Shown: positions 45,511 to 51,378 of the stretch, piece after piece | Position numbering within the stretch: the stretch's first letter is position 1 | Layout: every line of letters begins with the position of its first letter | DNA from: Negaprion brevirostris | Taxonomy: Eukaryota | Length of the DNA stretch: 64,000 bases | Assembly (NCBI GenBank): GCA_030324005.1 | Contig: JARDVH010000042.1 | Location: 83,003,332 to 83,067,331, forward strand | Direction: 5' to 3' | Made by a program: the position numbers and the translations under genes | The notes under the pieces: generated by a model | Database searches by the model: none | Seen by the model: only the letters and a program-made list of their open reading frames with translations | Told to the model about the DNA's origin: nothing

Positions 45511-45585
45511 ATAGTAGGTAGGGACAGTGGGAATCTCATTCATCCATTCATGTGCATCACTAATTAGATGACAAGGCATTTGGCA
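45511..45585 (-). pseudogene. 28S rRNA fragment immediately downstream of the R2 target site
   Basis: Minus strand reads TGCCAAATGCCTTGTCATCTAATTAGTGATGCACATGAATGGATGAATGAGATTCCCACTGTCCCTACCTACTAT, the conserved 28S sequence with CpG decay. Confidence 0.93.
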
Positions 45586-46038
45586 TTTTAATACAGAGTG
45601 CCTTATTTGAGTCTTTACGTCACTCATCGACGGTTTGGACTACCTCTAGCGGAATCCCAGTCAGGGCTCCCTGATCTTAATTGAGGAACATGAGCTGTTG
45701 TCTATGCTAGAGATTGTATTTCTAGCTATCTATGGACATCCCCAATCTTAGGGGTCTACTGATGAGCCAGTTTGTCAGTACCAAGTGTGCAGGAAACCTT
45801 ATGGCGAGAGTGAAAATTTAGAGTTTTAATTAGCCAAATTGAGCAAGGTCCAATTACAGGATAACTTATTAATGCCAATCAGCCTGACGAGCACGTTTTT
45901 GGGATGTGGGAGGAAACCGGAGTGCCTGGGGAAAACCCACACAAACACGGAGAATGTGCAAACTCCCACAGACATTGCTGTCCAGCATACAGTGCTAACC
46001 ACTGAGCTGACATGTTGCCCATTGACCAGTCCAGAATT
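45586..46038 (-). mobile_element. Older R2 3'UTR copy (runs into gap)
   Basis: Colinear with 46194-46663, more CpG-decayed, ends TAAAA directly at the 28S junction. Confidence 0.85.
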
Positions 46039-46138
46039 NNNNNNNNNNNNNNNNNNNNNNNNNNNNNNNNNNNNNNNNNNNNNNNNNNNNNNNNNNNNNN
46101 NNNNNNNNNNNNNNNNNNNNNNNNNNNNNNNNNNNNNN

Positions 46139-46188
46139 TCTTATAATCCTTTCCAAAACTTTGCCCACAACAGAAGTAAGGCTCACTA
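46139..46188 (-). mobile_element. CR1-like LINE RT fragment
   Basis: Translates VSLTSVVGKVLERIIR. Confidence 0.7.
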
Positions 46189-46480
46189 TTCTATTTTAAT
46201 ACACTCAATGAGTGCCTTGTTCAAGTCTTTACGTCGCTCGCCGACGGTTTTGACTATCTCTAGCGGAACCACAGTTAAGGGTCCACTGATCTTGATTGAG
46301 GAACGTGAGCTGTTGTCTAAGCTAGAGATGGTATAACTAGTTATCTAGGGTTATCCCAGATCTAATAGGGGCCTACTGATGAGCCAGGTTGTCAGTACCG
46401 AGTGCACAAGAACCCTCATGATGACGAGGGTGGAAATTTAGAGGGTTACGTTTATGCTGAACTAAGGGGAATCCAATTAC

Positions 46481-46645
46481 AGGACAATTTATTGTTGCCA
46501 ATCAGCCTAACAAGCACGTTTTTGGGATGTGGGAGGAAACCGGAGTGCCCGGGGAAAACCCATGCAAACACGGGGAGAATGTGCAAACTCCCACAGACAT
46601 TGCTGCCCAGCGTACAGTGCTAACCACTGAGCTGACGTGTTGCCC
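46481..46645 (-). repeat. V-SINE/HE1-like core embedded in the R2 3'UTR
   Basis: Minus strand: GGGCAACACGTCAGCTCAGTGGTTAGCACTG...GGAGTTTGCACATTCTCCCCGTG...CTCCGGTTTCCTCCCACATCCCAAAAACGTGC; also at 45858-46020. Confidence 0.85.
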
Positions 46646-46944
46646 ATTGACCAGTCCAGAATTATCATCTACTAACGGCCATGACGCACTGGGCGCCTCT
46701 CGAATCAACACCCAAGAACCAACCAAGTACGACCTGCCGAGTGCACACCCCTTGTCGGTCAACAAGGTGGACTGTAGCACCTGTAGATGGCATTAGGTGT
46801 CATCAATGAAATACAAATAGACAATACACAGACAGTACAAACACTGAATCAGAGTCCACCATATAAGTTCATACGGCCTCCGTGCGGGCTATAAGGTCAG
46901 TGGTCTGACAAGTGGCCAGCTTGTCCAGTGGTCTCGGTCGCCTC

Positions 46945-49900: not shown

Positions 49901-50376
49901 ATCTCTTTATTTATAAATCGGGCCCCGGCAAATCTCTTTTCAAGCTCTTCAAGGAGTGATTCCTCCTCCTCGGACCATACGCTCTTATTTTTACCCCGTT
50001 TGTTGGTGGTTTTGGGCAGTGCTTTCTTCGTGCGTTTCTCATTGCGAAGAACTGGATGACGGTGTCTTTCGTGTTGGCTGAGTCCACTCTCCGATGTGAA
50101 GGCCAACTCACATGCACTGCATTGAAACTGCCCAACTGTCAAGGATCGACCCTCACCCTGACATTTCGGGTAGTGGCAGGCAATAGAGTGGAACTCGCCA
50201 GACTTACCGCATCGAGAACATTTGGTCTTAATGTTCTTAGTCTTATGTACTGTTTTAACATGGTCTCTGAACACACCAACCATGGGGAATATGGTATTGC
50301 AGGGCTTACAATATAACGTATCAGTGGGATAGTGGATTACCACCTCCTTAACCTGCATGATCTTGCATAGGTTCAA
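46945..50376 (-). pseudogene. R2 ORF (RT plus restriction-like endonuclease) with two in-frame stops
   Basis: CKPC..H..H, CSRC..H..C, CSAC..H..H fingers; WSEEE..KTAKQISDKRR Myb; WRPITI, DLAKAFDSV, GVKQGDPLSP, FADD; CRGC..ETLSHI..C; RHN; KPDIV..VVDVTV..EKCLKY. Stops at 48325-48327 and 47179-47181 interrupt one continuous frame ending at TGA 46945-46947. A frameshift near 50350-50380 separates a further N-terminal part. Confidence 0.93.
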
Positions 50377-50872
50377 TTATTATTGTCTCAATGAAGGTAC
50401 CATCATCCTGGGCACCTCCCATTGCTTTTGGTATTGGTGATGTTAGCCATAGATCCCACTCCCTCCATGAGGGTTTGATAGGCTTTGTTATAGAAGGTAC
50501 AAGTAGTTGTTACTACCGCCTCGGCTGGATGGGCAGTCCAAGCCGGCTCTTCTACAACAGCCATTTAGTCTGCACGTACTGGGACGACAGGTTCCTCTGG
50601 CCTGGGACCCGAGTCCGTCGCCCAATAGGGCACTGCTGGTATGTTTTGTCTCAAGACCATCTCTTCCGTCTGGGTCGAGTCTGATCTTGTTACTAACTCC
50701 CTAGAGTTGTTGTGTAACCTAGCATTTTTAACTTTTCACAGAGCGGTTACGGACTCGTCTGCGGGGTTCTTGTTGTTTATCCAGTTCGCAACCCATCCGG
50801 CCACATGCCTTCCAGACAACACACTTTTTTTGGCTGATCTAGCCAGATCACAACCGCACGTAGTTTTTCAGT

Positions 50873-51038
50873 GGTCATTTGGCCCTTGGTCCTACAGTAC
50901 CAAGGTTACCGGCAGGGCCCTGAGGAGGCAGACCCAACGCTCTGATCGCCAAAAGTACGCCAAAACGATCACAACGGCAAATATCACCAATCGCTCTCAG
51001 ATCTCACCTCAAAACAATTAGTCATAGTTACTCCTGCC
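50873..51038 (-). ncRNA. HDV-like self-cleaving ribozyme of the R2 5' end
   Basis: Minus strand: P1 GGCAGG (28S) ... P2 GGTC, P3 GCC-TCCTCAG-GGC, P1' CCTGCC, GGTAA, P4 CCTTGGT/ACCAAGG, GCCAA, P2' ATGACC. Confidence 0.75.
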
Positions 51039-51069
51039 GTTTACCCGTGCTTCATTGAATTTCTTCACT

Positions 51070-51101
<32 letters not shown>

Positions 51102-51378
51102 CACATCAACACCAGCCAGTGGCCCTCGCGATGCTTTGTTTTAATTAAACAGTTGGATTCCCCTGGTCCGCACCAGTTCTAAGTCAGCTGCTGGGTGCCA
51201 GCTGAGGCCACCCAGCTGCCCGGGAGGGCCGAAGGGCACCACAGCTGAGTGGATCCCTTCCTGTGGATCATGAGTCGCCACCACCCCGGAGGGCAGCGCA
51301 AGCTCCAGCCGCAGCACGTGCCCAGCCCCGCTTTGCACCACAGCCCGATTGACCCAGCTCTTAGAGCCAATCCTTATC
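51018..51378 (-). pseudogene. 28S rRNA fragment upstream of the R2 target site
   Basis: Minus strand contains ATAAGGATTGGCTCTAAG...TGCCCAGTGCTCTGAATGTCAAAGTGAAGAAATTCAATGAAGCACGGGTAAACGGCAGGAGTAACTATGAC, CpG-decayed. Confidence 0.93.

What the first reader, a model, noticed from the sequence alone, without database searches (positions are those of the whole stretch)
45511..51378. R2 retrotransposon outside rDNA, landed in an orphan 28S fragment next to a protein gene
Seen: about 360 bp of 28S upstream and 75 bp downstream of the canonical R2 site (…AACTATGAC[TCTCT]TAA / TAGCCAAATGCC) enclose the element, with non-rDNA on both sides about 2 kb past the receptor stop codon. The 28S flanks show many CpG-to-TpG changes, while the R2 body remains CpG-rich. 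Established: R2 normally inserts site-specifically in rDNA arrays. Inference: a dispersed 28S pseudogene served as a landing pad for a later R2 insertion. The alternative is retroposition or translocation of a 28S-R2 co-transcript; no TSD was seen.
Basis: partly seen in the sequence, partly recalled or inferred. Interest (0 to 1): 0.7.

Follow-up and report, generated by a model that had tools for sequence, protein, structure and literature searches.

The report
Two spliced R2 copies, CR1 decoy
This is not one young jumping gene (R2) dropped into an old ribosomal-RNA fragment but two copies joined together, likely by the genome assembly: an old copy as decayed as its ribosomal flanks, and a younger copy that ends inside another repeat (CR1) at a look-alike of R2's normal target, a spot that R2 likely hit again and again in this genome.

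Summary
A lineage-A R2 and both 28S pieces are real and lie outside rDNA, but they are not one insertion. The CpG-rich body ends at 46194 in 55 bp of a CR1-type LINE. A 100-N gap follows, then a second R2 3'UTR (88% identical) that carries the downstream 28S. The body switches subfamily near 50250. Its 5' 770 bp, the second 3'UTR and the 28S flanks are similarly decayed; the other 4 kb are younger. The join is more likely an assembly chimera than nested insertion or recombination; no reads tested it. Genome-wide, 6 of 27 non-28S R2 3' junctions fall at one CR1 position that mimics the 28S target. The scan noted this hotspot before in other genomes. Not in those notes: 0 of 16 host-type 28S pieces that keep the upstream motif have an intact target, against 9 of 9 that lack it. 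This favours in-place landing as a general process.

The parts
51020..51378 (-). 28S rDNA piece upstream of the R2 site (about -379 to -11), old
   Evidence: Rfam LSU hit; 90% to L230; 17 of 31 CpG lost
50250..51019 (-). 5' segment of the old R2 copy A (5'UTR and N-terminal region, frameshifted)
   Evidence: 7-8 private indels; CpG loss 11 of 30; non-CpG distance 5.4% to L230 and 8.4% to L110, 4.6% to L232
46194..50249 (-). Younger R2 copy B: rest of the ORF (zinc fingers, Myb, RT, CCHC, endonuclease; in-frame stops at 48327 and 47181, no frameshift) and 3'UTR
   Evidence: 0 private indels in 4007 bp; 2.8% non-CpG from L110; CpG loss 33 of 170
46139..46193 (-). 55 bp of CR1-type LINE RT, starting at the recurrent R2 off-target nick
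   Evidence: Reads VSLTSVVGKVLERI; 40 of 42 nt identical to the CR1 behind L013; that element gives RVT_1; the name CR1 is recalled from the motif
46039..46138 (.). Assembly gap, 100 N, true size unknown
45585..46038 (-). 3'UTR of the old R2 copy A
   Evidence: 10 of 18 CpG lost; 5 private indels in 454 bp; groups with L232 and L101 at 100/99, apart from B
45511..45584 (-). 28S rDNA piece downstream of the R2 site (to +76), old
   Evidence: 94.5% to L044; 4 of 4 CpG lost
43474..43600 (+). Last coding exon of an LDL-receptor-family gene (bystander)
   Evidence: Sequence read; Ldl_recept_b in an upstream exon

Best explanation
The stretch joins two R2 copies: an old one that sits at the canonical site of a stray 28S piece and is as decayed as that piece, and a younger one that ends at a 28S look-alike site in a CR1-type repeat and was likely spliced into the middle of the old one by the assembly. 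Shown: the two 3'UTRs, the CR1 tail, the gap, the subfamily switch near 50250 and the age contrast. Inferred: the 5' segment and the second 3'UTR are the two ends of one old element. It likely inserted by ordinary target-primed reverse transcription soon after the 28S piece arrived, or came with it on a read-through RNA. The younger copy was likely primed in CR1 because that site mimics the bases a lineage-A R2 protein reads. The contig likely crossed from one copy to the other in a conserved zinc-finger stretch. Confidence is about 0.85 in the two-copy composite and about 0.5 in assembly as the joiner.
For: Subfamily switch: L110-L230 distance is constant (7.8%, 8.0%) while window-L110 falls from 8.4% to 2.8%; 0 of 300 permutations reach it. 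Indels: 8 private in 51000-50364 and 0 in 50363-46194; 10.6, 11.0 and 0 per kb for the 5' segment, copy A and B. CpG: flanks plus A 31 of 53 lost against 47 of 206 in the body, p 1e-6. The 5' segment and copy A both lie close to L232, B's 3'UTR does not. For assembly: exact runs of 50 nt with L110 and of 46 and 74 nt with L230 begin at the breakpoint. Three other loci (C133, C106, C97) hold overlapping R2 pieces stacked across 100-N gaps. A nested insertion needs a CR1 inside A and then a hit on it, while only 6 3' junctions were seen against at least 6,225 such sites.
Against: The A-to-B join lies inside a contig, with no N. The missing middle of A (about 3.6 kb, expected near 11 indels per kb) is not among the 19 other R2-bearing loci checked, though only 40 of 75 candidates were scored. 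No CR1 upstream half matching B's tail was found joined to a B-type R2. Other copies also carry more indels and CpG loss in the 5' region (20 in about 6.9 kb against 9 in about 11.6 kb), which weakens the age signal there. Strictly private substitutions differ little (12 of 800, 41 of 4026, 6 of 454). In the 5' tree the window groups with L230, not L232. No reads were laid on the locus.
Confidence: 0.5

Rival explanations
1. The composite is real DNA. A CR1 inserted into the old R2, a younger R2 was primed at the CR1 look-alike site, and its cDNA (or later recombination) joined to the homologous 5' part of the old copy, deleting what lay between. Ectopic repair from a donor R2-in-CR1 copy would give the same order.
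For: The join is within one contig. The order of parts fits exactly. R2 5' ends are modelled to form by cDNA annealing to upstream homology (PMC3774820, passages). A's middle was not found elsewhere. CR1-group elements make up 22-34% of elasmobranch genomes (PMC13343379, passage).
Against: It needs two or three rare events at one spot. No CR1 upstream half is present. The breakpoint sits in a stretch with long exact matches between copies, and the assembly stacks R2 pieces elsewhere.
Confidence: 0.32
2. One reading: one full-length young R2 landed in an older dispersed 28S pseudogene.
For: Most of the body is CpG-younger than the flanks (47 of 206 against 17 of 31, p 0.0004). Other dispersed 28S pieces look hit in place.
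Against: The young body ends in CR1. The downstream 28S belongs to a second 3'UTR of another subfamily that is as old as the flanks. The body is a mosaic.
Confidence: 0.08
3. The two contigs on either side of the gap come from different loci, so there is no single 28S-R2-28S unit here.
For: The gap size is unknown, and the scaffolder stacks R2 contigs elsewhere.
Against: The two halves of one 28S target face each other in the right order, with similar decay and the same subfamily affinity. The gene's exons run in order across the neighbouring 100-N gap.
Confidence: 0.1

Closest known systems
Lineage-A (clade A) vertebrate R2: R2Tg (PDB 9dou, 9nl3), 9nl2; chondrichthyan R2 of Hassan et al. 2026 (PMC13188248, passages)
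   Same: Three N-terminal zinc fingers, Myb, RT, CCHC and endonuclease; canonical 28S site used; full-length strays carry a 28S leader starting at -28 to -21, as expected for ribozyme cleavage at -28 (PMC3774820, passages)
   Different: Dozens of copies lie outside rDNA, with a recurrent site in CR1. The passages seen define R2 by 28S insertion and hold 0 occurrences of 'CR1' or 'off-target'; supplements not read
R2Bm insertions outside 28S (Xiong et al. 1988; paper not held; seen only as cited in PMC10499050, passages)
   Same: Non-rDNA insertion at a site that keeps the upstream motif and the nick motif
   Different: Described there as rare; here 27 non-28S junction events were read, 6 at one repeat position
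R2Tg insertions in human cells (PMC12222951, section 11 and passages)
   Same: Insertion into pseudo-28S; off-targets match -25 to -19 and the first 4-5 nt after the nick; donor-free cutting leaves indels at the target
   Different: Engineered and somatic, over 99% on target; here a germline fossil record
Non-specific R2NS families (PMC5035012, parts 1-3 of 5 read)
   Same: R2-clade elements found outside rDNA
   Different: Those lost specificity; this family keeps the canonical site and shows T at +1 in 25 of 26 off-target junctions

Membership tests
R2 non-LTR retrotransposon | Single ORF with RT and C-terminal CCHC plus restriction-like endonuclease | tested here: met
   RVT_1 E 2e-35, zf-RVT; KPDIVF..VVDVTV read in the translation; two nonsense stops
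R2 non-LTR retrotransposon | Insertion at the canonical 28S site | tested here: met
   Met for copy A and 12 other 3' junctions with 28S; not met for copy B, which ends in CR1
R2 non-LTR retrotransposon | 5' HDV-like ribozyme | tested here: inconclusive
   In L230 the leader pairs with a downstream segment (z -2.4); the pseudoknot and cleavage were not tested; leaders start at -28 to -21 in 11 of 11 strays
R2 lineage A | Three N-terminal zinc fingers (CCHH, CCHC, CCHH) plus Myb | tested here: met
   Read in the translation; N-terminus aligns to R2Tg at 127 bits; avian and 9nl2 proteins E 1e-116 to 1e-121 against 1e-50 for R2Bm-type chains
R2 lineage A | Placement in an RT tree with reference R2s | not tested
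   No reference set was fetched
CR1 LINE (host repeat) | RT domain of a high-copy non-LTR element | tested here: met
   Atlas RVT_1 clusters, score 0.96; 6,225 exact motif sites against 5 in the control
CR1 LINE (host repeat) | CR1 clade rather than another CR1-group clade | not testable with these tools
   No repeat library held; the name rests on recall of the KKG..DPGNYRPVSLTS motif
Active rDNA-resident R2 | Lies in a full rDNA unit with an intact ORF | tested here: not met
   Only one Rfam rRNA hit in 64 kb; stops and frameshifts

The most novel reading that the evidence does not exclude
The composite is real, and this genome is a natural target-specificity experiment. A lineage-A R2 has cut every dispersed 28S piece that keeps its upstream motif, leaving an insertion or a small deletion, and has spared every piece without it. 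It also uses a conserved coding motif of the most abundant LINE as a decoy target, and here a younger R2 primed in that decoy overwrote the middle of an older R2.
Probability: 0.3. Interest if true: 0.65.

Novelty: new variant of a known kind. Interest (0 to 1): 0.45.

Why it matters
Lineage-A R2 proteins are being developed for gene insertion into rDNA, and their off-target rules come from short cell assays. A germline record of hits on pseudo-28S pieces, nick-site deletions and a recurrent LINE decoy would show where such proteins go over evolutionary time. It gives direct predictions: the CR1 site should be nicked in vitro, and 28S pieces lacking the upstream motif should not. The locus itself is a dead fossil with no sign of function. 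It is also a warning that age contrasts inside assembled repeats can come from two joined copies.

Tried and rejected
Read-level test: a public data set holds the left flank, but no reads or contigs were laid on the locus, so the gap and the join stay open. The five runs with a 0.10 share are not used. TSD around the window unit: none; 1 of 14 other 28S units has one (15 nt, L232). Haplotype duplication across the gap: rejected, because the copies differ at 12% and fall in different clades. Co-amplification of one R2-CR1 composite as the source of the CR1 junctions: rejected, because the six CR1 halves share only 24-32 of 42 nt apart from one pair (40 of 42) whose R2s are about 78% identical, and two loci have both CR1 halves in register. 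Flanks older than R2 at other 28S loci: not seen (7 of 52 against 39 of 184 CpG lost, p 0.24, 9 loci). Upstream-motif enrichment at 11 full-length off-target 5' junctions: weak (mean 6.5 against 5.6 of 11, p 0.001), and 3 of the 11 are CR1 sites. A matching pair of changes in the predicted ribozyme stem (51036 and 50914): both are CpG transitions, treated as chance. PDB search with the CR1 piece was uninformative. Xiong et al. 1988 is not held.

Full report
Anatomy. The window lies on a 125-Mb scaffold of a 2.69-Gb vertebrate assembly, shark-like by its repeats (inference). On the minus strand the order is: unique DNA; 28S from about -379 to -11 (51378-51020); R2 5' region and ORF; 3'UTR ending at 46194; TAG and 55 bp of LINE RT; a 100-N gap; a second R2 3'UTR (46038-45585); 28S to +76; unique DNA. 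The protein has three zinc fingers, Myb, RT and endonuclease and best matches R2Tg, with two nonsense stops.

Two copies, two ages. CpG sites were scored against other copies in the genome, because no intact host rDNA unit was found in the assembly. Loss was 17 of 31 in the upstream 28S, 4 of 4 downstream, 10 of 18 in the second 3'UTR (copy A) and 47 of 206 in the body. A and the flanks do not differ (p 0.78); flanks plus A differ from the body (p 1e-6); A against the homologous part of the body alone gives p 0.10. The body is itself a mosaic. Against L110 and L230, which both span the region and stay 8% apart, the window moves from 8.4% to 2.8% from L110 near 50250, and 0 of 300 permutations match this. 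Private indels number 8 upstream of 50364 and 0 in the next 4.2 kb. A control shows that other copies are also about 3.7 times richer in indels in the 5' region, but the window has the highest count of 17 rows. The 5' segment and copy A both lie near L232, and B does not. Against this, strictly private substitutions are similar in all parts, and the 5' tree pairs the window with L230. I read the 5' segment and copy A as the ends of one old R2 coeval with its 28S flanks, and the 4-kb middle plus LINE tail as another, younger copy.

What joined them. Long exact matches between copies start at the breakpoint, and three other loci show overlapping R2 pieces stacked across 100-N gaps. This favours an assembly chimera. 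The join has no N, and A's middle was not found among 19 other R2-bearing loci, which keeps a real nested insertion or recombination alive. No read data bear on it.

The CR1 decoy. From I counted by hand 40 independent R2 3' junction events: 13 into 28S, 6 into one position of a CR1-type RT, 1 founding a chimeric family (48 of 62 pattern hits read, counted once) and 20 elsewhere. One copy with a truncated end (L095) was dropped. The six CR1 halves belong to five sequence types, and two have both halves in register. Six 5' junctions also start in the upstream half. Empty sites match 28S -36 to -1 at 18-19 of 36 bases with a one-base offset; 2 of 1,583 background TAG sites reach 18. The match includes 6 of 7 bases at -25 to -19, the region that R2Tg off-targets keep (PMC12222951, section 11); one extra base of spacing is tolerated by R2Bm (PMC10499050, passages). 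With 6,225 exact motif sites among roughly 7e7 TAG sites (extrapolated), chance gives under 0.03 hits in 27, even at ten times as many sites. The search returns only the best candidates, so counts are lower bounds. I reached this reading, which showed that the scan had noted the same hotspot in other genomes.

Are stray 28S pieces landing pads? A search with the 99 nt around the target gave 34 matches, all candidates scored. Left out: two long intact 28S unlike the host type (C50, C7412), two pieces ending at -21 or -22, and three with no upstream 28S. Sixteen host-type pieces keep the upstream motif: 12 continue into R2, 1 into unidentified DNA, 3 have 5-8 nt deleted at the nick, and 0 are intact. 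Two of the 16 lie on short contigs that may be rDNA units. Nine pieces start at -21 to -12, and all 9 are intact at the nick (Fisher p 5e-7, or 1e-6 without the two). Intact and R2-bearing pieces share 3' ends near +19 to +33. R2Tg cuts without a donor and leaves indels (PMC12222951, passage). The deletions therefore likely record cutting in place (inference). Against a pure landing model: flanks are not older than their R2 at 9 other loci, three copies carry a 28S tail with no upstream 28S, and the target region has 34 matches against 17 and 12 for two control regions. Read-through co-movement probably also occurs, and for copy A the two routes cannot be told apart.

Comparison and novelty. 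R2 outside rDNA is known as rare (PMC10499050, citing Xiong 1988), as non-specific families (PMC5035012, parts 1-3 read) and as pseudo-28S hits in cells (PMC12222951). Shark R2s are catalogued in PMC13188248 (passages only; supplements not read). A 2026 review calls specificity a continuum (PMC13580325, passages). Six literature searches (listings) showed no report of a CR1 hotspot or of the motif-dependent fate of stray 28S pieces; the library lacks most subscription papers. The locus is a dead, probably misassembled fossil. The genome-wide pattern is a new variant of known R2 behaviour. Interest 0.45.

Noticed in passing
L164-L218 (e.g. L173, L194, L203); genome-wide: 48 of 62 exact R2 3'-end junctions run into one identical tail ending in short repeats, which looks like a CR1-type 3' end (label recalled). 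It appears to be a non-autonomous family of up to about 650 bp of R2 3'UTR plus a LINE tail, likely spread by the LINE.
   Followed up: partly
window 46480-46610 and 45870-45980: The R2 3'UTR contains a segment of a high-copy SINE (V-SINE/HE1-like, label recalled), present in both copies and in relatives; an earlier scan note describes it.
   Followed up: no
L069:4163 and L070:7027: Two copies of an older R2 subfamily end at what looks like the same position of another repeat, by eye a Gypsy-type pol (recalled, not tested): a possible second decoy.
   Followed up: no
L232:1502-3134 (C193): A 28S-R2-28S unit flanked by a 15-nt direct repeat and holding a tandem duplication of the 28S leader.
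   Followed up: partly
L037 (C50) and L039 (C7412): Two long intact 28S sequences only about 72-73% like the host type and 80% like each other in places: likely foreign DNA in the assembly.
   Followed up: no
L242-L252: Nine stray 28S pieces start within -21 to -12, the loop of a hairpin in the Rfam structure line, which suggests a preferred RNA break or reverse-transcription stop.
   Followed up: partly
L064-L065, L068-L069, L072: Series of overlapping R2 pieces separated by 100-N gaps; at C133 three different R2-in-CR1 junction sets lie within 15 kb.
   Followed up: partly
L231, L117, L103: Internally deleted R2 copies that keep the 5' and 3' ends (SIDE-like).
   Followed up: no
window about 36100-43600, + strand: LDL-receptor-family gene with ligand repeats, EGF and YWTD exons and a short tail with FENPVF; not identified further.
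   Followed up: no
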